A stretch of DNA of 10,631 bases from a virus. Taxonomy: Duplodnaviria; Heunggongvirae; Uroviricota; Caudoviricetes. The position numbers and the translations under genes were made by a program. Positions 1,385 through 10,601 of the stretch are shown in pieces. Positions within the stretch are counted from its first letter, which is position 1, and every line of letters begins with the position of its first letter. Below the pieces are notes generated by a model. That model was given only the letters and a program-made list of their open reading frames with translations. It was not told the DNA's origin and did not search any database. Location of the stretch: IMG/VR virus record IMGVR_UViG_2703718802_000006. One strand, 5' to 3'.

Positions 1385-2341
1385 ATGTCATACCCGCTTT
1401 TTGACAAAGACGAACACTGGCATAAGCCAGAGCAGGCGTTTCTCACCGATGACCACCGGACCATTCTGCGCTTCGCCGTAGAGGCGCTAATGTCCGGTAA
1501 AGGAGCGGTGCTGGTGACGCTGGTGGAGATACGCGGCGGCGCGGCGCGCCCGCTCGGGGCGCAGAGGGTGGTGCGCGAAGATGGTCGTTACTGCGGTTTT
1601 GTCTCTGGCGGCTGCGTGGAGGCCGCTGCCGCTTTTGAAGCGCTGGAGATGATGGGCTCAGGCCGCGATCGCGAAATTCGCTATGGCGAAGGTTCGCCGT
1701 GGTTTGACATCGTTCTGCCCTGCGGCGGTGGGATCACGCTGACGCTCCATAAACTACGCTCGGCACAGCCTCTGCTCGCCGTGCTGAACCGCCTGGAACA
1801 GAGAAAACCGGTGGGGCTGCGCTACGATCCGCAAGCACAATCGCTGGTGTGCCTGCCCACGCAAACCCGGACGGGCTGGAATCTCAATGGCTTTGAGGTG
1901 GGGTTCAGGCCATGCGTCAGGCTGATGATTTACGGACGTTCTCTTGAGGCGCAGGCAACCGCGAGTCTTGCAGCAGCCACAGGCTATGACAGCCATATCT
2001 TCGATCTTTTTCCGGCCTCAGCCAGCGCTCAGATCGATACCGATACGGCGGTCATTTTGCTGTGCCATGATCTCAACCGGGAGCTGCCAGTGTTGCAGGC
2101 CGCGCGAGAAGCAAAACCCTTTTATCTCGGCGCATTGGGCAGCTATCGAACCCACACGTTACGTCTGCAAAAGCTCCACGAGCTGGGATGGTCCAGGGAG
2201 GAAACAACGCAAATCCGGGCACCCGTCGGGATATTCCCCAAAGCCCGGGATGCGCATACTCTGGCACTCTCCGTGCTGGCAGAAGTCGCCTCTGTACGTC
2301 TCCATCAGGAGGAGGATTCATGCCTGCCCCCGTCGTCCTGA
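1385..2341 (+). CDS. paoD: XdhC/CoxI-family molybdenum cofactor insertion chaperone, 318 aa
   Basis: AAGGAGG Shine-Dalgarno 5 nt upstream of the ATG at 1385, which is 9 nt after the paoC stop. The length and sequence (MSYPLFDKDEHWHKPEQAFL...) match my recollection of E. coli YagQ/PaoD. Confidence 0.9.
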   Translation: MSYPLFDKDEHWHKPEQAFLTDDHRTILRFAVEALMSGKGAVLVTLVEIRGGAARPLGAQRVVREDGRYCGFVSGGCVEAAAAFEALEMMGSGRDREIRYGEGSPWFDIVLPCGGGITLTLHKLRSAQPLLAVLNRLEQRKPVGLRYDPQAQSLVCLPTQTRTGWNLNGFEVGFRPCVRLMIYGRSLEAQATASLAAATGYDSHIFDLFPASASAQIDTDTAVILLCHDLNRELPVLQAAREAKPFYLGALGSYRTHTLRLQKLHELGWSREETTQIRAPVGIFPKARDAHTLALSVLAEVASVRLHQEEDSCLPPSS

Positions 2342-2730
2342 TCCTTGCGGCCGGGCGTGGAGAGCGCTTTCTCGCCTCCGGGGGAAATACCCATAAGTGT
2401 ATCGGCTGGCGTCAGTCCCCGGAGGTTGCGCCTTATCGCTGGCCATTTGAAGAAAACGGGAGAACTTTCGACCTTGCGATTGAACCGCAGATTACGACTA
2501 ATGATCTGCGTCTGATGTTGAGGCTGGCTCTTGCCGGCGGAGGAATAACAATTGCCACTCAGGAAACTTTCAGGCCATATATTGAAAGCGGTAAGCTTGT
2601 ATCGCTGCTTGATGACTTTCTTCCACAATTTCCGGGCTTCTATCTGTATTTCCCACAGCGTCGCAATATTGCACCAAAGCTCCGCGCCCTGATTGACTAC
2701 GTCAAAGAATGGCGGCAGCAATTGGCTTAA
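2320..2730 (+). pseudogene. yagP: Chimeric remnant: ~26 aa MocA-like nucleotidyltransferase N-terminus (MPAPVVLILAAGRGERF) fused to the C-terminal effector-domain fragment of a LysR-type regulator, 136 codons
   Basis: GAGGAGG precedes the ATG at 2320, which overlaps the paoD 3' end. The first ~26 residues carry the glycine-rich loop of MobA/MocA-type enzymes. The rest (…LRLALAGGGITIATQETFRPYIESGKLVSLLDDFLPQFPGFYLYFPQRRNIAPKLRALIDYV) is a LysR C-terminal substrate-binding fragment with no HTH. The position after paoD matches K-12 yagP, which is annotated as a LysR fragment. Confidence 0.7.
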
Positions 2731-2856
2731 ATGTCTGCACCTGCACTGCCTGATGTCAGAACAGTATTTTGATGAATTGCCAAGGTTACAATGGCACAAA
2801 TACGGCACAGGAGGAAACGTGGTGTATTTAAATATGGGGTAACTCTTTGATTTTAA

Positions 2857-3014: not shown

Positions 3015-4229
3015 ATGAAATACAAGCCGGATCAATACATCATCTCTGATAGTTACGGAGTTTATTACGTCAGGATCTCAATTCCTATATGGCTTCGTAA
3101 TGCATTTGGTGGAAGAAAAACTCTCGTCCGTAGTCTGAACACTTCCGATCTTCGTGTGGCACGTAGGAAGCGTGATGTTATAGCAGACGAGTTTCACCAC
3201 ATCAGGCAAATTGCAGAGCCACCAAAACCGGACAGCCTGCAGGACACAATCAGCTATCTAAAGAGCGTTGCTAAGTACGCAAAAGCTGCCCCGAAAGCAT
3301 CAGCGCCAATTATCTCCCAATGCCCCTCTCTGAATAAGATGTTGGAGATTTACCTCACGCATAACGCTGATCGCCTGAAAATTGGAACATTAAGCAAGAC
3401 CAGGAAAGCCGTAGAACTGTTTCTGAATTACCTGCGAAAGAAGGATGTGGAACTAAACGATATCAACCGTACCACCGTTACAGGCTGGCTTGATCATCTC
3501 CGAGAAACAAAGGCAGTCCAAACAGTGGCTAACTATCTTTCTGCAATGGCAAACATTCTCGATCTTGCCTCTTCCCGATACCAGGACGCCCCACAGCTGG
3601 AAAGTAACGTATTCAGAGGGCATAAACTCAACACAGCGCAGAGCCGCCAGAGTTACGAGGCATTCACGGACGAAGAAATTACGAAGCTCATTAGCACGTT
3701 TAACAAGTTAGGAGAGGACGAATTAAGGGATTTAAGCGCCATAGCCGCTTATAGCGGAATGCGCATCAATGAAATAGCCAGTTTGAAATCTGACAATATC
3801 CGTGAAGTTGAGGGGGTGTTATGTTTCGATGTATTGGAAGGAAAGACAGCTAACGCTTCCAGGCTAATCCCATGCCATAGTGCGATTAAAACAATGGTCC
3901 TGGAACGCTGCCAGAAGCCGCACAACGGCTTTTTATTTTACCGTGCAAGTGTGACCAAGAGAGAGGACGGCAAGCGCTCCTCATGGCACGTAAACCGCTT
4001 TGGACGGCTTAAACGCGATATTCTCCCAGGGCAAGAAAACAAGGTGTTTCACTCGTACCGCCATGCCGTGATCAGTAAGCTAAACGCCGCCGGAGTGGAT
4101 GAATCTCGTATTGCCTTGCTCGCGGGCCACTCATTTGGAGAAACTGAATCTTTCAAGACGTATTCGAAATCCGTTCCTGAGCGAATAGTGAAGGAACTAA
4201 AAGAATATATCGAATTAATCAAATATTAA
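3015..4229 (+). CDS. int: Tyrosine recombinase / phage-type integrase, 404 aa
   Basis: GGTGG Shine-Dalgarno before the ATG at 3015. The C-terminal catalytic pattern is visible: AYSGMRINEI (Arg), HSYRHAV (His-x-x-Arg), LLAGHS (His) and KTYSK (Tyr nucleophile). It lies immediately next to the att fragment. Confidence 0.9.
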   Translation: MKYKPDQYIISDSYGVYYVRISIPIWLRNAFGGRKTLVRSLNTSDLRVARRKRDVIADEFHHIRQIAEPPKPDSLQDTISYLKSVAKYAKAAPKASAPIISQCPSLNKMLEIYLTHNADRLKIGTLSKTRKAVELFLNYLRKKDVELNDINRTTVTGWLDHLRETKAVQTVANYLSAMANILDLASSRYQDAPQLESNVFRGHKLNTAQSRQSYEAFTDEEITKLISTFNKLGEDELRDLSAIAAYSGMRINEIASLKSDNIREVEGVLCFDVLEGKTANASRLIPCHSAIKTMVLERCQKPHNGFLFYRASVTKREDGKRSSWHVNRFGRLKRDILPGQENKVFHSYRHAVISKLNAAGVDESRIALLAGHSFGETESFKTYSKSVPERIVKELKEYIELIKY

Positions 4230-4243
4230 AATACCTTAAATGT

Positions 4244-4260
4244 GAGGGGGAATCCCCCTC
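4244..4260. terminator. Bidirectional intrinsic terminator between the convergent int and 92-aa genes
   Basis: GAGGGGG-aat-CCCCCTC perfect 7-bp GC-rich stem. On the + strand it is followed by TATTTTATTT. On the - strand it sits 4 nt downstream of the 92-aa gene stop. Confidence 0.65.
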
Positions 4261-4264
4261 TATT

Positions 4265-4543
4265 TTATTTATACCATACACTTTGCATATATTGCGATGT
4301 TTCAGATGAAATATTATACCAATATGCATAATTATTTGTTGCATCTACAACTATCAATTTATCATCACTATCCATCGCTTTATGAACTATTTGCGCTGCC
4401 TGTTCAGAATTGTAATGTGAATTAACATACCAATTTGATTCTGTAACTTTGACTGCTACGCCCAATGATTTAATAGCTTCGTAAACTGCTGGATAGTTTT
4501 TAGTTTTGATCAAGTCATAGGTTACAAAAAGATTGTTAGCCAT
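4265..4543 (-). CDS. Hypothetical 92-aa protein; predicted beta-alpha-beta-beta-alpha-beta (ferredoxin-like, Cas2/VapD-reminiscent) pattern
   Basis: GGAGAG Shine-Dalgarno 8 nt before the ATG at 4543. The region is AT-rich. Alternating segments by eye are LFVTYDL (beta, ending in Asp), YPAVYEAIKSLG (helix), AVKVTESNWYVNS (beta hairpin), SEQAAQIVHKAM (helix) and KLIVVDAT (beta). The fold is inferred by eye only. Confidence 0.7.
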   Translation of the reverse strand: MANNLFVTYDLIKTKNYPAVYEAIKSLGVAVKVTESNWYVNSHYNSEQAAQIVHKAMDSDDKLIVVDATNNYAYWYNISSETSQYMQSVWYK

Positions 4544-4571
4544 TTTATTCTCTCCAGAGATTCAAAAGAAT

Positions 4572-4591
4572 AAGCGCCGCTATAGGCGCTT
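4572..4591 (-). terminator. Intergenic hairpin (possible attenuator, partial terminator or processing site) between the 42-aa and 92-aa genes
   Basis: On the minus strand: AAGCGCC-uauagc-GGCGCUU (7 bp) followed by AUUCUUUUG. It lies 10 nt after the 42-aa gene stop and ~28 nt before the 92-aa gene start. Confidence 0.35.
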
Positions 4592-4601
4592 TGAGATGTT
4601 T

Positions 4602-4730
4602 TTATTTCTTAGCTTTCTTGGTAGGGATTTTGATAGTTTCAGTTACCGTAGTGTCAGGATGTCTTTTAGCTTCAATGGGCTTAACAAACTGACCAGTTAT
4701 CGCAGAACGAACTACTGTTTTCTTAGCCAT
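4602..4730 (-). CDS. 42-aa lysine-rich basic peptide (MAKKTVVRSAITGQFVKPIEAKRHPDTTVTETIKIPTKKAKK)
   Basis: Internal ATG of the 76-aa track ORF, preceded by GAGGTG with 4-nt spacing. The upstream 34 codons of the long form have no RBS and overlap the candidate promoter. I recall short proteins with an RSAxTGxFV…HPxTTVxE pattern being widespread and poorly annotated, but I cannot name a family. Confidence 0.55.
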   Translation of the reverse strand: MAKKTVVRSAITGQFVKPIEAKRHPDTTVTETIKIPTKKAKK

Positions 4731-4776
4731 AAAACACCTCATCTTGGAGATAAAGAGTGAACTGCTTACCCTTTTA

Positions 4777-4805
4777 AGAATAAGGGACAAACGAAGCGGC
4801 GTCAA
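4777..4805 (-). promoter_or_regulatory. Candidate sigma70 promoter for the 42-aa/92-aa cargo module
   Basis: Minus strand: TTGACG (4805-4800), 17 nt, TATTCT (4782-4777). It is ~45 nt upstream of the ATG at 4730 and immediately downstream of the structural-operon terminator. Confidence 0.4.
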
Positions 4806-4807
4806 AG

Positions 4808-4857
4808 AAAAAACACCACATATACACATCATTTACAAAACAAGCGCAATATGTGGT
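4808..4857 (-). terminator. Terminator-like hairpin ending the structural operon
   Basis: Minus strand: ACCACAUAU (4857-4849) pairs with AUAUGUGGU (4823-4815) across a 25-nt loop. After one unpaired G this is followed by UUUUUU (4813-4808). It begins ~25 nt after the 623-aa gene stop. The large loop makes it atypical. Confidence 0.4.
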
Positions 4858-4881
4858 ATCTCCATGCGATTTACATCACAA

Positions 4882-6753
4882 TCACCCCCCTGTGCTGCTC
4901 TGACCGCTCAAGGCTGACAAGGTGAGCGACTGTGTAAAACTGGCTTGTGAGGCTCTCGCCTGGAAATCAATGTAATCGCTCAGCCTTGAGCTATCGCTGG
5001 CGATAGTTAGCGGAACAGACGCTTCAAGATTGAGATTGAATACAGGTGCAAGATTGTACGCTGGCGCACTATTGGTGCTGGTTAGGGATGATATAGCAGA
5101 ATCACGAAGCGCTCCCCCTTTCAGAGAATCACCATTCAGGCCGTATTGTTCTACCGCTGTCCCTGTAGGCTGATCATCTATCCCTAACCAACCTTTAACG
5201 GCATGACCTACACTACGGCTGTCCCACCCTGTCTTGTCCTGCACCCAATCGGCAGCACTGTTGGCACTTCCTGTAACAGCACCATCATACAAACTCTGTG
5301 CCGCTGGCTTATCGCTACCAGTGAACCATTGAGGGAAACGTTCTTTCAGCCCTGCATTGATATCACTCACAACACTGGAAATCTCACCCACAAACCCAGT
5401 GATTTCTTTCGAGAGATTGCCTAAGCCCTCTCCAAGCATTCCCGCCGCTTCGGTGATAATTTTGGTTTTCCTTACCAGATCGTCGCCCCCATCGGCAAAG
5501 CCTTTCATCCAGCCTGTAAACAACTGATTGTCTATTCCATTCATCAGATTACCCATAGCAACACTCAAATCGCCATACTCATAAACCTGCTTGATCATTT
5601 CGTCGTTCAGCGTCTGACCGGACTCAATGAGAGTTCTTAGCGTCTTGTTATACTCTGCACCGTTGTTCATGAACATATCGGTGTAGTGCATCAGGTCATC
5701 ACCTAAACTCTCAATCAGCGTACCAATCTGAGCCTGTGACATACCACGGCGTTGCCCTTCATTCACCGTAGCTTGAACAAAATCGAGTGGTGAATCTTGG
5801 AACTTGGAAATCTGATCCTTACTCCATCCAAATTTGTTCATTATCGACGTAATGCCACCATCCCCACCCTTCCATTCGCCATTCTTCATTTGAGCATCGT
5901 TAACAGTCATGGCGAGGCGTTCACGCACATCTTTCATGTTATCGACGGCTTTTGAGGTATTAGCTGAATCAACACCGTGTTGCTGTCCCCAGGCCACCAT
6001 CGTTTTTATGGCGTTTGGGTTGGTTTTCACACGTTCACTCATTCTCACCAGTTCGAGGTTATCATTCCCTTTGTCAATAATTCGCTGCCCCACTCCGAGG
6101 GAGCCAGCCGTTAACGCAAGGCTTCCTAATACCCCACCACCGACGATAGGAGCATTCCCGCCCTTCTGAGCCTTTAGCTTAGTGGCTGCTGCGGCATACT
6201 GGGTACGCTGTGCCTGTGTCACTTTGGCTTGCTGTGCGGCTTCTCTGCGTAACAGGGTTACACGCTCACGAATAGATGCGTTCATACGGGCACTGGTCAG
6301 ATTGCCTTTGGCAAATTCCTCTGTTTGCTGACGTATGAAACGTAACGCTTCATATTGAGATTTAAGATCAAGTCCGTATTTACCTTTAATTCCTGACACT
6401 TGTAGCCCTGCATGGCGAAGTTTAAGCTCGGCTGTCTCTTGGTGCTTCTGTAGCTGCTGCTTCGCTTTCAGATTGGCCTTTTCATCCCTGGCTTTCTGCT
6501 TCTCTGCCGCACGTTGGGCTTTCATTTCCTTCGTATCACGAGGTTTATCATTAAAACGTGCATCATCGGCTTGTTGACGAGCTTTCTGTCTGCGCTGCTT
6601 CTGAGCCTGGAAGCGAATCTTGGGATCGGCTATTTTCTGGAAGTGCTTTTGAAGGTTATCCGCTGCGGCTTTAGCCAGAGCAATGCTCTGCTTATCCACC
6701 ACGAATGTAACCGTATTGCGGATCTGACTGACCGAAATATCAAGCATCGCCAC
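4882..6753 (-). CDS. Large structural protein, tape-measure-like, 623 aa (Lys/Gln/Ala-rich coiled-coil N-terminus plus a glycine-rich hydrophobic segment)
   Basis: Long uninterrupted ORF. Residues ~50-190 are charged heptad-like repeats (KQRRQKARQQADD…EKQKARDEKANLKAKQQLQKHQE). APIVGGGVLGSLALTAGSLGVG is a Gly-zipper hydrophobic stretch, as seen in tape measure proteins. The start is ambiguous: GTG at 6753 or ATG at 6747. It overlaps the upstream 65-aa gene by 14 nt. Confidence 0.8.
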   Translation of the reverse strand: MAMLDISVSQIRNTVTFVVDKQSIALAKAAADNLQKHFQKIADPKIRFQAQKQRRQKARQQADDARFNDKPRDTKEMKAQRAAEKQKARDEKANLKAKQQLQKHQETAELKLRHAGLQVSGIKGKYGLDLKSQYEALRFIRQQTEEFAKGNLTSARMNASIRERVTLLRREAAQQAKVTQAQRTQYAAAATKLKAQKGGNAPIVGGGVLGSLALTAGSLGVGQRIIDKGNDNLELVRMSERVKTNPNAIKTMVAWGQQHGVDSANTSKAVDNMKDVRERLAMTVNDAQMKNGEWKGGDGGITSIMNKFGWSKDQISKFQDSPLDFVQATVNEGQRRGMSQAQIGTLIESLGDDLMHYTDMFMNNGAEYNKTLRTLIESGQTLNDEMIKQVYEYGDLSVAMGNLMNGIDNQLFTGWMKGFADGGDDLVRKTKIITEAAGMLGEGLGNLSKEITGFVGEISSVVSDINAGLKERFPQWFTGSDKPAAQSLYDGAVTGSANSAADWVQDKTGWDSRSVGHAVKGWLGIDDQPTGTAVEQYGLNGDSLKGGALRDSAISSLTSTNSAPAYNLAPVFNLNLEASVPLTIASDSSRLSDYIDFQARASQASFTQSLTLSALSGQSSTGG

Positions 6754-6937
6754 CGCCTTTCTTACTCACCAGATAATTAAGTGCATCTGATACACTACGC
6801 CCACGATGTAATAACTGACGTAGATGACCGTGATCTATTTCAAGCACACGACACACTCCCGCCAGATTTAATAACTCTTCTGCTGTTTCAGCATTTACGG
6901 CGAGGTGAAGCCCCGCGCTTTTTACAATCACTTGCAT
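6740..6937 (-). CDS. Hypothetical 65-aa protein
   Basis: AAGAGGAAAG Shine-Dalgarno before the ATG at 6937. Its 3' end overlaps the start of the 623-aa gene, suggesting translational coupling. I recognise no motif. Confidence 0.6.
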   Translation of the reverse strand: MQVIVKSAGLHLAVNAETAEELLNLAGVCRVLEIDHGHLRQLLHRGRSVSDALNYLVSKKGGGDA

Positions 6938-6962
6938 TTATCTTTCCTCTTATTCTGGAAAT

Positions 6963-7046
6963 AAAAAAGGGCGGGAACACTGGGGAGATGTTCCCAACGT
7001 TCACACGCCCTATTCAAAAGCCTGATTATTGCCTGCGGGTCAGGCT
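6963..7046 (-). terminator. Two tandem intrinsic-terminator-like hairpins downstream of the capsid gene
   Basis: Minus strand T1: AGCCUGA (7046-7040) pairs with UCAGGCU (7025-7019), followed by UUUG. Minus strand T2: GGGAACA-ucuccccag-UGUUCCC (6995-6973), closed by GGGC/GCCC (7010-7007 with 6972-6969) and followed by UUUUUUAU (6968-6961). Confidence 0.55.
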
Positions 7047-7058
7047 CCCGCTTGCTCA

Positions 7059-8090
7059 TTAAGCAGTGATGGTGATCTTCACTTGCATACCTAACGCATG
7101 GTTCACTGGTAATGCGCTGTTTTCGTGCATAACGTGGTAAGCATCGCCGCGCTCGCTCAGGTAGCCCCAAGAGTAGTATTCAGCAGGTGCAGCATCGATC
7201 AGCGCGAAGTTGCCAGAGGCAGCGCCGTAGATGTTCTGATAAGCATTTGTGCCTTTACTGAATACCGGAACCGCCACCATGTCAGCATCATCTGGCATCT
7301 GTGCAAGGATCAGCGGATCTGTCACTTTAACAATGTCGATAGGCGCACCAGGTAGGCTAAACGTACTAACACCAGGGAGAAGCTCGTGACGCTGGTAGAA
7401 TAGGTTACGGTCGTCATATGGCGCTACATACTGGAACGCCTTAGACATACTGTCAGAGAAGCGAATCTGGCTAAATGCAGCAGGTTTAGCGAATACGATC
7501 ACTCGTTCAATCTGTCCAGCCAATCCACCTGCGGCAGCCTGAACTTTGTCTAAGATGGCATCAAAATCCTGTGCCGCTGTCGCTGTGCTCACGCTGGCTG
7601 TCATTGGCACCACACCGAACAGTTCAGCATAAGAGATCAGTAGGTCATCAGTTGCAGGCGTATAAACTTCACCTTTGAACAGAGCACGGGCCAGGTAGGA
7701 TTCACGGGTACGAAGATAGGCAATCTTATGTTTCCCTGTGTACTCGGTGTACAGGTCGGTAACGGTTTGCTCGTAGTCCGTGCCTTGCACCCTTTTCCCT
7801 TGTACGTCTACTGGTTTGAAGGTGTCTTCCCTCGCAAACCAAGGGATCTCCACCAAATATTCTTTACCATTCTGACGCGCGGTAGTGTCGTGGCTTGATG
7901 AATAACGACTCTGCGGGGTGTTAAACAGGCTGTAGTTATCATCCAGAAGCTGTGTCACCACCACTTTCGGATTCTGAACACCTACCCCGTCGAAGAGGTC
8001 GAGAGCATTCATAAGATAGTTACGTTCCGGCAGAGCCTGGAAGATTGGCGCTAAATCGACCATCTCACGCCCAATTGCGATTTTACTCAT
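7059..8090 (-). CDS. Major capsid protein, lambda gpE-like family, 343 aa
   Basis: AAGGAAG Shine-Dalgarno before the ATG at 8090. The size is typical of E-family capsid proteins. The central segment ESYLARALFKGEVYTP resembles the lambda E segment EMQAVSAVLKGKYTM. It sits directly after a small decoration-like gene, as in the lambda D-E order. Family assignment is by eye. Confidence 0.75.
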   Translation of the reverse strand: MSKIAIGREMVDLAPIFQALPERNYLMNALDLFDGVGVQNPKVVVTQLLDDNYSLFNTPQSRYSSSHDTTARQNGKEYLVEIPWFAREDTFKPVDVQGKRVQGTDYEQTVTDLYTEYTGKHKIAYLRTRESYLARALFKGEVYTPATDDLLISYAELFGVVPMTASVSTATAAQDFDAILDKVQAAAGGLAGQIERVIVFAKPAAFSQIRFSDSMSKAFQYVAPYDDRNLFYQRHELLPGVSTFSLPGAPIDIVKVTDPLILAQMPDDADMVAVPVFSKGTNAYQNIYGAASGNFALIDAAPAEYYSWGYLSERGDAYHVMHENSALPVNHALGMQVKITITA

Positions 8091-8106
8091 TATTTATCTT
8101 CCTTGA

Positions 8107-8466
8107 TTAAGAGGTGAAGAATGGACGGCATACGAACCCTTTGGATTCGAGCGTGGTGATAGCTGCGGCGTGATTAGCTGCGTGCAGGTTGTCGGCTTTC
8201 AGTGCTACGAAGCTGCCAACATTAGGCGCACGTAGGACATTCACGGTTTTACCGTCGCCAGCACTCACGAAATCACTTACCACCACAAAGGCATCATCGC
8301 CGGAGGTGTATAGAGCGCCATCAGCGCCGATAACATCGCCGCATTCAATATCTGCTGGCAGGTCGAAAACACGGCCTTCTACGACTGCAAAAGAATCAGT
8401 GGCGTAGCTCACTACGTCAGTGAAACTCTTACGAATTGGGAAAAGTTCGGTTAGGTCTACAATCAT
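8107..8466 (-). CDS. Head decoration protein-like (lambda gpD-type position and size), 119 aa
   Basis: ATGA start/stop overlap with the upstream 71-aa gene. It is a small Gly/Ala/Val/Asp-rich beta-type protein immediately upstream of the capsid gene. Function is inferred mainly from synteny and composition. Confidence 0.6.
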   Translation of the reverse strand: MIVDLTELFPIRKSFTDVVSYATDSFAVVEGRVFDLPADIECGDVIGADGALYTSGDDAFVVVSDFVSAGDGKTVNVLRAPNVGSFVALKADNLHAANHAAAITTLESKGFVCRPFFTS

Positions 8467-8678
8467 TGTTGTTTGATTTCCTTGGATTTGATTGCGATCC
8501 GTTCCTGCATACTAAGTTGAGGTGTGTCCTCAGAAGGGAAATACTGGTCTACAGCTTTTTCTATTTCTTCAACGGTACATCCTGCCATTTCAGCCACTTT
8601 AGCTATTAACTCAGGATTAACTTGAATCACTTCGGATTTGTATTTTAGGATTCGGTCGCGATTGTTTATTAAGAACAT
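8463..8678 (-). CDS. Hypothetical 71-aa acidic helical protein, first gene of the capsid cluster
   Basis: AAGGAA Shine-Dalgarno 8 nt before the ATG at 8678. It is coupled to the next gene by an ATGA overlap. It occupies the position of a scaffold-type gene, but I see no recognisable similarity. Confidence 0.6.
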   Translation of the reverse strand: MFLINNRDRILKYKSEVIQVNPELIAKVAEMAGCTVEEIEKAVDQYFPSEDTPQLSMQERIAIKSKEIKQQ

Positions 8679-8749
8679 TGTGTTGTTCCTTCGCGTTATA
8701 ACTGCGTTTATCCTTCCATTAATAACGGAAGTGTTACATGCAGATTGTT

Positions 8750-8771
8750 AAAAAGGGGCGATTAAGCCCCT
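8750..8771 (-). terminator. Rho-independent terminator ending the leader/ncRNA transcript
   Basis: Minus strand: A-GGGGC-uuaauc-GCCCC-U followed by UUUUU (8754-8750). This is a canonical GC stem plus U tract, 72 nt upstream of the 71-aa gene start. Confidence 0.7.
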
Positions 8772-9296
8772 GGAGAATATGCCCTTGTTAGAAAGCATTC
8801 TGTTAAAATCATTTTCGTTTCGGAGGATTATGATGTTAAAGAAAGGTTTCTTGAAAAAATGAAGGGCGCAACTGTTACGAATAACAGAAGTAGGATCGCC
8901 CGTCATTGCTCCCACTTCAAAACAGAAGCCCTTCTGTCATGGCGAGAAGTGGGAATGGAATTTCTTATCACCCTGGAATAGTAATAAGAGATTGCCAGCC
9001 TGAACGTAACTACCACTGACGGCGTTTATTCAGTCTGACTGCTTATAATCCTAACGGGGTTATAAGGTTTAGAGCACGGAATATGCTCTCTGAAAGAGAA
9101 TGTGCGCGGTGATTGTTCGTTACCACCCGACACAAGTGGGAACGCCCGCGCCACCCTTTGGAACTAAACACAACAAAGGAAAACAACCAGCTTTCAGAGA
9201 GGATATTCAATGGGAGAGAGCGCCGCCTATGGGAAACGGCATTCTCAGGGAGTGCGTATTGTTATACGAGGGTGGAGTGATTCTAATACCTACCCT
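8750..9296 (-). ncRNA. Candidate ~550-nt structured non-coding transcript (or long late-operon leader), family unknown
   Basis: Bounded by a near-consensus promoter and a clean terminator on the same strand. There is no convincing ORF on either strand. It contains many hairpins: 9255-9268, 9216-9246, 9104-9151, 9071-9089, 9042-9066, 8910-8954 (nested) and 8872-8887. The last has a UUCG loop only in the minus-strand sense. Confidence 0.5.
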
Positions 9297-9303
9297 ATAA
9301 CTT

Positions 9304-9332
9304 ATTATGACACAAATAGCACAATATGTCAA
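9304..9332 (-). promoter_or_regulatory. Near-consensus sigma70 promoter
   Basis: Minus strand: TTGACA (9332-9327), 17-nt spacer, CATAAT (9309-9304). The predicted start is near A9296/G9295. Confidence 0.65.
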
Positions 9333-9347
9333 GATATTTCGTAATAT

Positions 9348-9686
9348 TTATGTTATAGCGCATTCTTCCGCGATCTGGATGGCAAGCTCTCCGAGTTCAA
9401 CGGTGATGTGTTCCATAGCGAGGGCAAGCTCCTCCATATCATTGGCAATGCGCCACGCCTGATCCACGGTGACGGTATCCCCGTTCATCTGCACCAGGTG
9501 CTCTACAGCAGCATTCCAGTGTTCAAGGGCGGTGATTGCCTGTTCAGTGTATTGCAGCGCTTCCAGGAGCGCGGAGGGCGTTCTCTCACACCACGCCCTA
9601 TTAACAAGCCACAGGGCTGGTAGATGCCAAATATCGTGGAAATAGTTAATTAGGGTGTTCATGGTGTCCATAGTTTTATTATTCAT
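9348..9686 (-). CDS. Hypothetical 112-aa helical protein
   Basis: I chose the ATG at 9686 because it overlaps the stop of the upstream 127-aa gene (AACAATGAATAA). The 161-aa long form would overlap that gene by 155 nt. The sequence is rich in Ala/Glu/Leu helices. The stop is 15 nt upstream of the -35 element of the RNA promoter. Confidence 0.6.
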   Translation of the reverse strand: MNNKTMDTMNTLINYFHDIWHLPALWLVNRAWCERTPSALLEALQYTEQAITALEHWNAAVEHLVQMNGDTVTVDQAWRIANDMEELALAMEHITVELGELAIQIAEECAIT

Positions 9687-10062
9687 TGTTGTTTTCCTTG
9701 TCGTCAAAGAGAATATCAAAATCTTGTATGTGGTGAGATAAGCCGTTAGTTTGGGAATACCCCACCCAGTCAACATAGTTTTCTGCGTATAGCTGCCACT
9801 TCTTAAGATTCGATGAATCAACACGGTATTCACGGCGGCGGCGTGGTTTATAGAAGACGTTATCCGAAGATGCTAAAACATCCTGCAATAGTTCAAACTC
9901 TGCCCCTACGGGCACCGTTGCAGGGTATTCTATTATTTCGGTGATCCATTCTCCTGGAATAGACTCTCGTGCGAGGTCTTGTAGAGAAGAGGTGTATTTA
10001 CGTTTGCTGGCGCGAGTGGCTTTTTCGATTCTAACAATGTTACTTCGTTCTTTTCGTCCCAT
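9679..10062 (-). CDS. Hypothetical 127-aa protein (basic N-terminus, acidic C-terminus)
   Basis: GAGGAA Shine-Dalgarno 3-5 nt before the ATG at 10062. It is translationally coupled to the downstream gene. I recognise no motif. Confidence 0.65.
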   Translation of the reverse strand: MGRKERSNIVRIEKATRASKRKYTSSLQDLARESIPGEWITEIIEYPATVPVGAEFELLQDVLASSDNVFYKPRRRREYRVDSSNLKKWQLYAENYVDWVGYSQTNGLSHHIQDFDILFDDKENNNE

Positions 10063-10075
10063 TCATTCCTCGTAG

Positions 10076-10162
10076 AGGGAAACTTCCGTGTTTTCTCGTT
10101 AATGTCCATACTGCGTAAAATGCAAATAACCAATACATAGCGATGATCATAAAAGTTTCCCT
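10076..10162. repeat. 10-bp perfect inverted repeat with a 67-nt spacer
   Basis: AGGGAAACTT (10076-10085) and AAGTTTCCCT (10153-10162). They flank the intergenic region between the 94-aa and 127-aa genes. This could be an operator pair or a long-range RNA stem. Confidence 0.5.
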
Positions 10163-10171
10163 ATTGTGTGT

Positions 10172-10456
10172 TTAGAAATTAGAGTAGATAAATTCTACAT
10201 TGTCTCGTTCGATGTGTTTCAGCGTGAATGATAGATAATGGCTTTCATCGTCGATATCGATCACACCAATGTTGCGCAGCGCACGAAGCCAGAATCTGAT
10301 CCCGTTATCACTTACACTGGATTTATCAGATAGCTCTCCGTAAGAAATTTTAGTTTTTCTGCCCTTCCAGAACCAGATAAGCGCATAATAAACGCCCTTC
10401 CCGCTATCGTTGATCTGTATCTGGTTTGTGTTGTTCAATTTTATGTATTGTATCAA
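10172..10456 (-). CDS. Winged-helix-like DNA-binding protein, 94 aa, TTG start
   Basis: AGGAGG (10467-10462) plus a 5-nt spacer before the TTG at 10456. The segment ISYGELSDKSSVSDNGIRFWLRALRNIGVIDID reads as helix-turn-helix followed by a beta wing. Confidence 0.65.
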   Translation of the reverse strand: MIQYIKLNNTNQIQINDSGKGVYYALIWFWKGRKTKISYGELSDKSSVSDNGIRFWLRALRNIGVIDIDDESHYLSFTLKHIERDNVEFIYSNF

Positions 10457-10469
10457 TTAGTCCTCCTGA

Positions 10470-10601
10470 TTAGTTCCAGTGGCGTTGTATTGTGGCGATC
10501 CCTTTCTTCATTAGTTCAGCCGTTTGTCTTTGGGTCAATCCTTTGGATTTGTGTTCCTGTACTTCTTTACGGGTGTTGTTACCTTTAACTTTCTTTCTCA
10601 C
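10470..10601 (-). CDS. Possible 43-aa HTH peptide (…GLTQRQTAELMKKGIATIQRHWN), GTG start, or the 3' end of a gene interrupted by an in-frame TAG
   Basis: The HTH-like motif resembles Hin/resolvase-type C-terminal HTH domains. An in-frame TAG at 10607-10605 lies two codons upstream of the GTG. The frame upstream of the TAG is open to the window edge. There is no clear Shine-Dalgarno. Confidence 0.35.
   Translation of the reverse strand: MRKKVKGNNTRKEVQEHKSKGLTQRQTAELMKKGIATIQRHWN

What the first reader, a model, noticed from the sequence alone, without database searches (positions are those of the whole stretch)
4230..4881. Insulated AT-rich two-gene cargo module next to the integrase (42-aa basic peptide + 92-aa Cas2/VapD-like-fold protein)
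This is the most AT-rich segment of the window. It is bracketed by terminators (4808-4857 upstream, 4244-4260 downstream) and has its own candidate promoter (TTGACG-17-TATTCT). That is classic moron architecture.

The two small genes are separated by a hairpin plus a U-rich tract (4572-4591), which could set unequal expression as in toxin-antitoxin or abortive-infection pairs.

The 92-aa protein reads as a ferredoxin-like beta-alpha-beta-beta-alpha-beta unit, with an Asp at the end of strand 1 (LFVTYDL), as in Cas2/VapD nucleases. No CRISPR or cas context is present.

Variable slots next to integrases in P2/P4-type elements are established hotspots for anti-phage systems. A tiny, unannotated defence or exclusion module is therefore plausible.
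Basis: partly seen in the sequence, partly recalled or inferred. Interest (0 to 1): 0.6.

Follow-up and report, generated by a model that had tools for sequence, protein, structure and literature searches.

The report
Portable prophage cargo: solo Cas2-like gene
Next to the integrase of a small E. coli island sits a self-contained two-gene cargo cassette whose main gene is a stand-alone relative of the CRISPR protein Cas2; this large protein family also rides in P2-like and lambdoid prophages, and its function has never been tested.

Summary
Window 4230-4881 (- strand) is the most AT-rich stretch. It carries a promoter-like site, a 42-aa basic ORF, a terminator-like hairpin, a 92-aa ORF and a terminator hairpin shared with the convergent integrase.

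Both ORFs are real genes (dN/dS about 0.1). The 92-aa protein models confidently (pLDDT 94.6) as a ferredoxin-like fold. Its best structural matches are Cas2, BPSL1038 and VapD. It belongs to an unnamed family (2,426 clusters, no Pfam, phrog_1090) whose members repeatedly hit Cas2 profiles.

The cassette is mobile cargo:
- Close relatives of the element carry an EAL-domain gene or nothing in this slot.
- The Cas2-like gene, with the same upstream hairpin, sits in the P2 Z/fun moron slot, in a lambdoid prophage and beside three unrelated integrases.
- Its upstream partner varies (42-aa peptide, DUF3606, DUF2188, or none).

That variation argues against an obligate toxin-antitoxin pair. No CRISPR context exists here, although two distant loci place a member inside a type I-E cas operon.

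Function is untested. My best guess is a lysogen-expressed, attenuator-throttled dimeric nuclease or nucleic-acid binder used in conflicts between mobile elements. I rate it a new variant of a known kind, of moderate interest.

The parts
4809..4863 (-). Long stem-loop followed by a U run. Probable intrinsic terminator of the upstream 623-aa tape-measure-like gene, insulating the cassette.
   Evidence: RNA fold of 4770-4885(-): -30.3 kcal/mol, z = -3.15. The core stem is conserved in E. coli and Klebsiella relatives.
4777..4805 (-). Sigma-70-like promoter candidate: TTGACG, 17-nt spacer, TATTCT.
   Evidence: Consensus scan, 9/12 matches. The -35 is invariant, and the -10 keeps TAnnnT in AR_0128 and Klebsiella. 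No expression data.
4602..4730 (-). 42-aa basic miniprotein gene (MAKKTVVRSAITGQFVKPIEAKRHPDTTVTETIKIPTKKAKK). One unit of a repeat family, R-[SD]-A-x-T-G-x-F-V...P-x-T-T-V-x-E.
   Evidence: - Annotated as WP_257394210.1.
- dN/dS is 0.11-0.15.
- 783 relatives at E <= 0.01, none with a Pfam domain.
- The repeat is duplicated in 64-80-aa homologs.
- AlphaFold2 gives a beta-alpha-beta model, pLDDT 85.9.
- pI is about 10.5.
- A 1-nt indel upstream of this ATG in Klebsiella rules out the longer 76-aa ORF.
4563..4591 (-). GC hairpin (AAGCGCC-TATAGC-GGCGCTT) plus U tract. It starts about 10 nt after the peptide's stop codon and ends about 20 nt before the Shine-Dalgarno sequence of the 92-aa gene. 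Terminator or attenuator.
   Evidence: - Terminator-like hit.
- The same hairpin, with an invariant GGCGCT 3' arm and a T run, precedes the Cas2-like gene whichever small ORF lies upstream.
- Changes in AR_0128 and L018 keep pairing through G-U on this strand only.
- No promoter-like site lies between the hairpin and the ATG.
4265..4543 (-). 92-aa stand-alone Cas2-superfamily protein gene, preceded by a GGAGAG Shine-Dalgarno sequence.
   Evidence: - Sequence families: phrog_1090, E = 8e-22; PADLOC Cas2_II, E = 2.8e-4.
- Model: pLDDT 94.6, b1-a1-b2-b3-a2-b4-b5-a3.
- Foldseek: top hits are Cas2, BPSL1038 and VapD.
- Family size: 2,426 clusters.
- Of 101 diverse members, 16, 14 and 12 hit the three commonest Cas2 models (best E = 1.6e-8), and 6 hit PF09827.
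- dN/dS is about 0.09.
4244..4260 (.). Palindromic GC hairpin (GAGGGGGAATCCCCCTC) between the convergent 92-aa gene and the integrase. Probable bidirectional terminator.
   Evidence: Terminator-like hit on the + strand. A G5...C5 hairpin with a different loop sequence is kept at the same place in AR_0128 and Klebsiella.
3015..4229 (+). Context: tyrosine integrase (DUF6538 + Phage_integrase), convergent with the cassette, at the island's end.
   Evidence: Pfam and PHROG hits. The Cas2-like gene lies beside three integrase lineages that are 34% identical or less to each other.
4882..6753 (-). Context: 623-aa tape-measure-like gene upstream of the cassette.
   Evidence: phrog_16051, E = 1e-96. 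A relative (L094) has a Dit-like tail gene directly after its homolog.

Best explanation
SHOWN:
- Window 4230-4881 (- strand) is a self-contained, horizontally mobile cargo cassette (a moron) at the integrase end of a small capsid-encoding island.
- It consists, in order, of: a promoter-like site; a 42-aa basic beta-alpha-beta miniprotein gene; a terminator-like hairpin starting about 10 nt after that gene's stop codon; the ribosome-binding site and gene of a 92-aa stand-alone Cas2-superfamily protein; and a terminator hairpin shared with the convergent integrase.
- The Cas2-like gene travels with its upstream hairpin between unrelated backbones. It is an old, purifying-selected family that is not tied to cas1 or CRISPR arrays.

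INFERRED:
- The cassette is expressed in the lysogenic or resident state.
- No promoter fits between the hairpin and the start codon. The Cas2-like gene is therefore transcribed only by read-through of the hairpin, so the cell makes much peptide and little Cas2-like protein. A ribosome terminating on the leader ORF may modulate read-through.
- The Cas2-like protein works as a homodimer. It has a conserved acidic cluster (D10, D58, D61) plus S36 at one end of the sheet.
- It most likely acts as a metal-dependent nuclease or nucleic-acid binder acting in trans in conflicts between mobile elements. That could mean excluding superinfecting phage or protecting the resident element. It is less likely to serve the island's own integration, replication or packaging.
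- The 42-aa peptide is a separable companion, not an obligate antitoxin.
For: Anatomy.

Real genes: dN/dS is about 0.09 for the 92-aa gene and 0.11-0.15 for the 42-aa gene. RefSeq annotates both.

Cas2 superfamily:
- The AlphaFold2 model has pLDDT 94.6.
- Foldseek top hits are almost all Cas2, BPSL1038 or VapD.
- PADLOC Cas2_II scores E = 2.8e-4 for the window protein.
- Among 101 diverse members, essentially the only recurrent hits are Cas2 models (best E = 1.6e-8) and PF09827 (best E = 8.6e-7).

Conserved residues: D10 is acidic in 83 of 101 members, S/T36 is kept in 86, and D61 in 100.

Dimer: natural tandem two-domain fusions exist.

Mobile cargo:
- The slot holds an EAL-domain gene or nothing in relatives with an 87%-identical integrase.
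- The 92-aa allele is only 57-71% identical at the DNA level inside flanks that are about 97% identical. Its dS is 2.4, against 0.07 and 0.2 for the neighbouring genes.
- The same gene plus hairpin occurs in the P2 Z/fun slot, a lambdoid prophage and other integrase islands.
- The R18C paper calls the P2 copies morons of unknown function (PMC6823313).

Lysogenic orientation: in Enterococcus, Staphylococcus and Clostridium temperate phages, the homolog lies antisense within the early lytic region, pointing the same way as int and cI.

Hairpin belongs to the Cas2-like cassette. No promoter-like site follows it.

Not an obligate pair.
Against: - There are no expression, toxicity or phage-challenge data.
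- No PADLOC defence model matches other than Cas2.
- The same slot carries an EAL-domain gene in relatives, so the position alone does not imply defence.
- Across 55 diverse loci, neighbours are heterogeneous and include housekeeping genes. Many family members may therefore not be on mobile elements at all.
- The family is mildly acidic (median pI 5.7), which does not favour unspecific nucleic-acid binding.
- D10 is not universal: 70 members have D and 13 have E, out of 101.
- A tandem pair of these domains is embedded in a 1,507-aa baseplate-J-like protein. That hints at a binding or structural role rather than catalysis.
Confidence: 0.4

Rival explanations
1. Toxin-antitoxin or abortive-infection pair. 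The Cas2/VapD-like protein is a nuclease toxin, the upstream small protein is its antitoxin, and the hairpin sets an antitoxin-rich ratio.
For: - VapD toxins share the fold. C. jejuni VapD-VapW appears among the Foldseek hits.
- In all roughly 30 enterobacterial loci examined, a small ORF plus hairpin precedes the gene.
- Charges are complementary: the peptide has pI 10.5 and the 92-aa protein pI 5.5.
- A terminator between the two components is used in type III ToxIN systems (my own knowledge).
Against: - The upstream ORF belongs to at least three unrelated families (the 42-aa peptide, DUF3606, DUF2188), yet the Cas2-like proteins they precede are 65-70% identical.
- Many distant members have no upstream ORF at all.
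- The peptide family occurs without any Cas2-like partner.
- Between two E. coli elements the peptide is 98% identical while the Cas2-like protein is 66% identical. There is no co-variation.
- No conserved partner appears in 55 loci.
Confidence: 0.15
2. Counter-defence: an orphan cas homolog on mobile elements that acts as a decoy Cas2. It would poison host Cas1-Cas2 and block spacer acquisition against the resident element.
For: - Orphan viral cas genes can be anti-CRISPRs. A survey found 358 such loci, and several were validated (bioRxiv 10.1101/2023.06.24.545427).
- The gene has a lysogen-side orientation in temperate phages of hosts that commonly carry CRISPR.
- The family is acidic, as many anti-CRISPRs are.
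- The family is homologous to Cas2.
Against: - Identity to E. coli Cas2 in structural alignments is only 6-11%, so mixed dimers are unlikely.
- Two loci carry a member inside a complete type I-E operon, between cas3 and cse1, beside a canonical cas1-cas2. That is an odd place for an inhibitor.
- Many members lie in genomes and contexts with no visible mobile element or CRISPR link.
- The selective value of blocking adaptation is debated (PMC13131331).
Confidence: 0.1
3. Accessory factor of the adjacent tyrosine integrase (directionality or architectural subunit). This would echo the Cas1-Cas2 pairing and the 'Cas2 homolog plus recombinase' modules noted by Makarova et al. 2012.
For: - The gene is convergent with, and 27-60 bp from, an integrase in three different island backbones (the Klebsiella version of the window's backbone carries a swapped integrase). 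The integrases fall into three lineages that are 34% identical or less to each other.
- Solo Cas2 homologs beside resolvases or relaxases have been noted before (PMC3506569).
Against: - The same cassette sits in the P2 Z/fun slot and in a lambdoid early region, far from any integrase.
- Relatives with the same integrase (87% identity) lack it.
- Most of the 55 diverse loci have no recombinase neighbour.
- An IS element separates the gene from the integrase in some loci without loss of either.
Confidence: 0.05
4. A host-physiology or regulatory function not concerned with conflict between elements. Examples: a GhoS-like sequence-specific RNase, or a small ligand- or protein-binding ferredoxin-like domain. 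The upstream small basic proteins would be independent stacked morons.
For: - Genomic contexts are heterogeneous and often look like housekeeping regions.
- An EAL-domain (c-di-GMP) gene occupies the same slot in relatives.
- The domain is embedded in a baseplate-J-like protein.
- The upstream ORFs (DUF3606, DUF2188, the 42-aa repeat peptide) are each widespread on their own.
Against: - Profile hits point to Cas2 only, not to ACT or other ferredoxin-like families.
- The acidic residues typical of Cas2 are conserved.
- In Enterobacterales and Gram-positive bacteria the gene is strongly concentrated in prophage moron positions.
Confidence: 0.2

Closest known systems
CRISPR-associated Cas2 (Pfam PF09827; E. 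coli Cas2, PDB 4qdl/5dlj)
   Different: - There is no cas1 and no CRISPR array nearby.
- The window protein does not reach any Pfam Cas2 hit.
- It has an extra beta5-alpha3 at the C terminus with an invariant Trp.
- Where a member lies in a type I-E operon, it is additional to the canonical Cas2.
BPSL1038 of Burkholderia pseudomallei (PDB 7vxr; PMC10491678)
   Same: A stand-alone Cas2-like protein in a genome context without CRISPR. [quoted passage not shown] Its conserved Asp and a downstream Ser are proposed as the active site.
   Different: The profile match is not significant (E = 0.59). BPSL1038's D11(X20)SST motif is not present here: the window protein has D10, then 25 residues, then S36 within TES. 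The genomic setting is different, and the in vitro DNase activity was shown only for BPSL1038.
VapD toxins (VapXD, VapD-VapW)
   Same: Cas2-like fold, small size, located on mobile elements, and preceded by a small upstream gene.
   Different: The upstream gene here is variable, unrelated to VapX or VapW, and often absent. There is no evidence of toxicity. The structural match is weaker than to Cas2.
GhoS, the type V antitoxin RNase
   Same: A stand-alone Cas2-like ferredoxin fold that acts on RNA outside CRISPR.
Morons of P2-like phages at the Z/fun site (fun(Z); the R18C and P2-EC53 Z-region ORFs)
   Same: A homolog 68.5% identical to the 92-aa protein, with the same upstream hairpin, occupies exactly this slot. 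It is AT-rich, lies antisense to the late genes, and is non-essential cargo (PMC6823313).
   Different: In the window the cassette lies beside an integrase in a non-P2 island. It is preceded by the 42-aa peptide instead of DUF3606.
Solo Cas2 homologs next to resolvases or relaxases on mobile elements (Makarova, Anantharaman, Aravind and Koonin 2012, PMC3506569)
   Same: A Cas2 homolog without an antitoxin, next to a DNA recombinase on a selfish element. An addiction or toxin-like role was proposed.
   Different: This is a different subfamily, and its partner is a tyrosine integrase. The adjacency here looks positional (the end of the element), because the cassette also occurs far from any recombinase.

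Membership tests
Cas2 (CRISPR adaptation protein) | [quoted passage not shown] | tested here: met
Cas2 (CRISPR adaptation protein) | Sequence match to Cas2 profiles at the curated threshold | tested here: not met
   The window protein has no PF09827 hit at E <= 0.1 and no NCBIfam hit. It has only PADLOC Cas2_II at E = 2.8e-4. At family level the homology is detectable: 6 of 101 members hit PF09827 (best E = 8.6e-7), and 12-16 of 101 hit each of the commonest PADLOC Cas2 models.
Cas2 (CRISPR adaptation protein) | Conserved acidic residue at the C-terminal end of strand 1 | tested here: met
   D10 is invariant in 47 enterobacterial members. It is D or E in 83 of 101 diverse members.
Cas2 (CRISPR adaptation protein) | Encoded next to cas1 and a CRISPR array | tested here: not met
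   There are no cas genes in the window or in the 30-kb RM10410 region. Only 2 of 55 diverse loci lie in a cas operon, and there the member is extra to the canonical cas1-cas2.
Cas2 (CRISPR adaptation protein) | Homodimer that bridges two Cas1 dimers | not testable with these tools
   No multimer prediction was available. Natural tandem two-domain fusions suggest dimerisation.
VapD-type toxin-antitoxin system | Cognate antitoxin gene (VapX or VapW) conserved next to the toxin gene | tested here: not met
   The upstream ORF is the 42-aa peptide, DUF3606, DUF2188, something else or nothing. The peptide family occurs alone.
VapD-type toxin-antitoxin system | Toxicity of the Cas2-fold protein, neutralised by its partner | not testable with these tools
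   This needs expression experiments.
BPSL1038 subfamily | D11(X20)SST active-site motif and significant sequence similarity | tested here: not met
   The motif here is D10, then 25 residues, then S36 (TES). The profile search against PDB gives E = 0.59. The structural match is good.
Moron (autonomous extra gene unit in a prophage or island) | Own promoter and terminator, insulated from neighbouring operons | tested here: inconclusive
   Terminator-like hairpins lie on both sides and exceed chance (5 found, 0.8 expected). There is a promoter-like site with a conserved -35. Promoter-like hits are not above chance, and no transcription data exist.
Moron (autonomous extra gene unit in a prophage or island) | Base composition different from the flanks | tested here: met
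   GC is 0.31-0.35, against 0.45-0.51 in the flanks.
Moron (autonomous extra gene unit in a prophage or island) | Present or absent among closely related elements, and found in unrelated backbones | tested here: met
   It is absent from relatives with an 87%-identical integrase, where the slot holds an EAL-domain gene or no cargo. It is present in P2-like prophages, a lambdoid prophage and three island backbones.
Known anti-phage defence systems (PADLOC-DB v2) | Match to a model of a described or candidate defence protein | tested here: not met
   The 92-aa protein has only weak Cas2 hits, and the 42-aa peptide has none.
P2/P4-type element | P2 or P4 core genes around the slot | tested here: not met
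   The window's element has a DUF6538 integrase, a lambda-E-type capsid gene and a tape-measure-like gene. It has no P2 or P4 core genes.

The most novel reading that the evidence does not exclude
The 92-aa protein may represent a large, unnamed family of Cas2-derived proteins carried by mobile elements that interfere with host CRISPR adaptation. It would do so as a decoy Cas2 that caps or poisons Cas1, protecting resident prophages and islands from acquisition of self-targeting spacers. A leader-ORF/terminator attenuator would tie its dose to the cell's translation state. This would be the first natural Cas2-derived anti-CRISPR. It would also be a living counterpart of the 'Cas2 homolog on a selfish element' stage proposed for the origin of CRISPR adaptation.
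Probability: 0.1. Interest if true: 0.8.

Novelty: new variant of a known kind. Interest (0 to 1): 0.5.

Why it matters
Solo Cas2/VapD-fold genes on mobile elements have been noted since 2012, but almost none has a tested role. This cassette defines a distinct, large subfamily: 2,426 clusters at 50% identity, with no Pfam entry.

The subfamily has a recognisable and portable regulatory layout of small leader ORF, terminator hairpin, then gene. It sits in classic lysogen-expressed cargo slots of E. coli and Klebsiella prophages and islands, including the P2 Z/fun site.

The cassette is 650 bp and occurs in lab-tractable hosts. One cloning experiment could therefore show whether stand-alone Cas2 relatives are defence effectors, counter-defence factors or addiction toxins. 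That result bears on how Cas2 was recruited into CRISPR systems.

Tried and rejected
Searches that gave nothing:
- Pfam and NCBIfam have no family for either protein.
- A profile of the family against all PDB sequences gave nothing significant; the best hit was E = 0.16 and BPSL1038 scored E = 0.59.
- Foldseek against viral predicted structures (BFVD) gave no hit at E <= 0.001.
- The AlphaFold-database Foldseek library was unavailable.
- Rfam and tRNA scans of the window found nothing relevant.
- Literature searches found no functional study of this family. Search terms included Cas2-like prophage, DUF3606, P2 hotspots, viral cas genes and solo/orphan Cas2.

Partner search: I clustered the neighbours of 55 diverse loci and scanned 126 neighbour proteins against Pfam and PADLOC. 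No recurrent partner emerged.

Readings rejected:
- The longer 76-aa reading of the small ORF. The promoter-like site lies inside it, and a 1-nt indel upstream of the ATG at 4730 breaks the frame in Klebsiella.
- 'Spurious ORFs'. dN/dS is about 0.1 and both families are broad.
- Rapid positive selection as the cause of the divergent 92-aa allele. dS is saturated (2.4) and dN/dS is 0.09, so the allele was swapped in by recombination.
- A separate promoter between the hairpin and the 92-aa start. No consensus match exists there and no conserved hexamers occur across cassettes.
Full report
**Where the window comes from.** It is identical to the chromosome of E. coli RM10410. The order is paoABCD, a truncated LysR-type gene, and then an island. 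The island starts with a tyrosine integrase (3015-4229, +; DUF6538 plus Phage_integrase). It continues on the minus strand with the two small genes of the finding, a 623-aa tape-measure-like gene, a 65-aa gene and a lambda-E-type major capsid gene. RefSeq annotates both small ORFs as hypothetical proteins.

**Checking the observation.**
- The segment is the most AT-rich in the window: GC is 0.31 at 4201-4500, against 0.45-0.51 in the flanks.
- The scan also finds the hairpin plus U tract at 4572-4591(-) and the palindromic hairpin at 4244-4260.
- Terminator-like sites exceed chance (5 found, 0.8 expected). Promoter-like sites do not (2 found, 2.8 expected).
- The upstream structure folds as a long stem (4809-4863) followed by a U run (z = -3.15).
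- In an alignment with E. coli AR_0128 and three Klebsiella loci, the -35 hexamer is invariant and the -10 keeps TAnnnT. Both hairpins are retained. The hairpin after the 92-aa gene keeps G5...C5 arms around a different loop sequence.
- A 1-nt indel upstream of the ATG at 4730 shows that the 42-aa reading is the real gene, not the 76-aa ORF.

**Are the ORFs genes?** Yes. Against AR_0128 and Klebsiella, dN/dS is about 0.09 for the 92-aa gene and 0.11-0.15 for the 42-aa gene.
- The 92-aa protein has 107 close relatives in Enterobacterales. A profile search finds 2,426 clusters at E <= 0.001.
- The 42-aa peptide has 783 relatives at E <= 0.01.

**The 92-aa protein.**
- It has no Pfam or NCBIfam family. 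It matches phrog_1090 (unknown function, E = 8e-22) and weakly matches PADLOC Cas2_II (E = 2.8e-4).
- With an alignment of 47 homologs, AlphaFold2 gives a confident model (pLDDT 94.6) with topology beta1-alpha1-beta2-beta3-alpha2-beta4-beta5-alpha3.
- Foldseek against the PDB is dominated by BPSL1038, Cas2 chains and C. jejuni VapD.
- Homology, not just fold, is supported at family level. Among 101 diverse members, essentially the only recurrent hits are Cas2 models: 16 to Cas2_II, 14 and 12 to two other Cas2 models (best E = 1.6e-8), and 6 to Pfam PF09827 (best E = 8.6e-7).
- Conserved positions are N4, Y9, D10 (acidic in 83 of 101), I24, G28, S/T36, D58, D61 (100 of 101) and W90.
- Natural proteins with two tandem copies of the domain exist. 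One pair is embedded in a 1,507-aa baseplate-J-like protein. This fits a dimeric working unit.

**The 42-aa peptide.** It is strongly basic (pI 10.5). It models as a small beta-alpha-beta unit (pLDDT 85.9). It is one copy of a roughly 30-residue motif (R-[SD]-A-x-T-G-x-F-V ... P-x-T-T-V-x-E) that is duplicated in 64-80-aa homologs. Three distant members that I looked up lie in other mobile-element contexts with no Cas2-like neighbour.

**Is it cargo?** Yes.
- IMG/VR relatives with an 87%-identical integrase and a homologous tape-measure gene lack both genes. In some, the slot holds a 223-aa EAL-domain gene. In others, a Dit-like tail gene abuts the integrase.
- Between the window and AR_0128, flanks are about 97% identical, but the 92-aa gene is 57-71% identical at the DNA level. 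Its dS is 2.4, against 0.07 for the peptide gene and 0.2 for the integrase. An old allele was swapped in by recombination.
- Klebsiella elements keep the order capsid, tape-measure gene, 42-aa gene, 92-aa gene, but their integrase is only 34% identical.
- The Cas2-like gene also occurs in these places:
  - beside another DUF6538 integrase, preceded by DUF3606;
  - beside a third integrase lineage in Hafnia, preceded by a 41-aa peptide homolog;
  - in the Z/fun moron slot of P2-like prophages and phage R18C, preceded by DUF3606;
  - in a lambdoid prophage.
- The R18C authors describe the P2 copies as morons of unknown function (PMC6823313).
- Only 115 of 5,426 complete E. coli genomes carry any detectable copy, and 13 carry the 42-aa version.
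- In Enterococcus, Staphylococcus and Clostridium temperate phages, remote homologs lie antisense in the early lytic region, pointing the same way as int and cI. This suggests expression in the lysogen.

**The hairpin.**
- Whatever small ORF lies upstream (42-aa peptide, DUF3606 or DUF2188), a GC hairpin with an invariant GGCGCT 3' arm and a T run begins 5-15 nt after its stop codon. It ends about 20-25 nt before the Shine-Dalgarno sequence of the Cas2-like gene.
- Sequence similarity between cassettes starts at the hairpin, so the hairpin belongs to the Cas2-like unit.
- Substitutions in AR_0128 and L018 keep pairing through G-U, which works only for RNA of this strand.
- There is no promoter-like site downstream of it. 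I infer that the Cas2-like gene is transcribed by read-through of a leaky terminator and is kept at a low dose.
- The short distance from the stop codon means a terminating ribosome could hinder hairpin formation. That is a testable attenuation idea, not a result.

**What it is not.**
- It is not a canonical Cas2. The window has no cas1 or CRISPR array.
- In the two distant loci where a member sits in a complete type I-E operon (between cas3 and cse1), a normal cas1-cas2 pair is also present.
- It is not a BPSL1038-type protein by sequence or motif.
- It is not an obligate toxin-antitoxin pair. The upstream partner varies, is often absent in distant members, and does not co-vary.
- No recurrent neighbour appears among 55 diverse loci. 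Their neighbours range from defence-like genes (a multiubiquitin/E1/DUF6527 operon, capH, mad3) to housekeeping genes.
- The element is not P2/P4-type.

**Most likely mechanism.**
- Shown: an insulated, mobile, purifying-selected cassette encoding a stand-alone Cas2-superfamily protein behind a leader ORF and terminator.
- Inferred: resident-state expression, low read-through dose, a homodimer with an acidic site (D10, D58, D61, S36), and action on nucleic acid in trans in conflicts between mobile elements. I give this about 0.4.
- Rivals:
  - a regulatory or binding role unrelated to conflict (0.2);
  - a VapD-like toxin-antitoxin or abortive-infection pair (0.15);
  - a decoy Cas2 that blocks CRISPR adaptation (0.1; orphan viral cas genes can be anti-CRISPRs);
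  - an accessory of the neighbouring integrase (0.05; compare the Cas2-plus-recombinase modules noted in PMC3506569).

**Novelty and interest.** Solo Cas2 homologs on selfish elements are a known kind, and the P2 copies have been seen before. New here are three things: the delineation of a large unnamed subfamily, its conserved leader-ORF/terminator layout, and its movement between prophage moron slots and integrase-proximal island slots. I rate it a new variant of a known kind, with interest 0.5. It is easy to test, and it bears on what Cas2-fold proteins do outside CRISPR.

Noticed in passing
window 4882-10600 (and L013-L017, L002): The island is compact (about 13-14 kb in AR_0128). It encodes a lambda-E-type capsid protein (7059-8090), a 119-aa gene just upstream of it and a tape-measure-like 623-aa protein. 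No terminase, portal or tail-tube gene is visible. The gene order is conserved in Klebsiella despite a 34%-identical integrase, so this may be a satellite-like element rather than a decayed prophage.
   Followed up: partly
window 4882-6050: The 3' half of the tape-measure-like gene is mosaic. It is 50-80% identical to AR_0128 at the DNA level, while neighbouring stretches are 97-100% identical. This is a second recombination or diversification patch beside the 92-aa gene.
   Followed up: no
L026 6872-7279 and 11998-12843; L070: A complete type I-E cas operon carries a member of the 92-aa family between cas3 and cse1. It also carries an unexpected 281-aa ORF between cas6e and cas1, in addition to a canonical cas1-cas2. 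The records are titled Flavobacterium sp. and Bacterioplanoides sp.
   Followed up: partly
P0132 (1,507 aa), residues 365-549: A baseplate-J-like protein with a CBM_5_12 domain contains two tandem copies of the Cas2-like domain (E = 4e-21 and 7e-16). This is an unexplained fusion that hints at a non-catalytic binding role.
   Followed up: partly
L004 (phage R18C) 3768-3947: The R18C record annotates gp23 on the opposite strand. The conserved DUF3606 ORF lies on the same strand as the Cas2-like gp22, so the GenBank annotation of this moron is probably on the wrong strand.
   Followed up: yes
L081-L084, L086, L003: A 198- to 230-aa ORF with no Pfam family often travels with the DUF3606 + Cas2-like pair, divergently oriented. 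It is the 'putative lysogenic conversion protein' ORF1 of P2-EC53. It accompanies the pair in both P2-like and lambdoid prophages, so the mobile unit may have three genes.
   Followed up: partly
L096 4545-5216; L097 1545-2216: Relatives of the island carry a 223-aa EAL-domain (c-di-GMP phosphodiesterase-like) gene in the integrase-proximal slot, on the opposite strand to the window's cassette.
   Followed up: partly
A6 alignment (relatives of the 42-aa peptide): The 42-aa peptide is a single unit of a motif of about 30 residues that is duplicated in 64-80-aa proteins from diverse bacteria, including Nocardia. It is a widespread small-protein family with no Pfam entry.
   Followed up: partly
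window 2188-2850: A truncated LysR-type gene remnant and a GC drop from about 0.58 to 0.42 mark the left junction of the island next to paoD. No tRNA gene lies in the window.
   Followed up: no
L102 (Staphylococcus phage SN8) 5424-6243: A TIR-domain gene plus a DUF4231 gene sit beside the lysogeny module of the phages that also carry the remote Cas2-like homolog.
   Followed up: no
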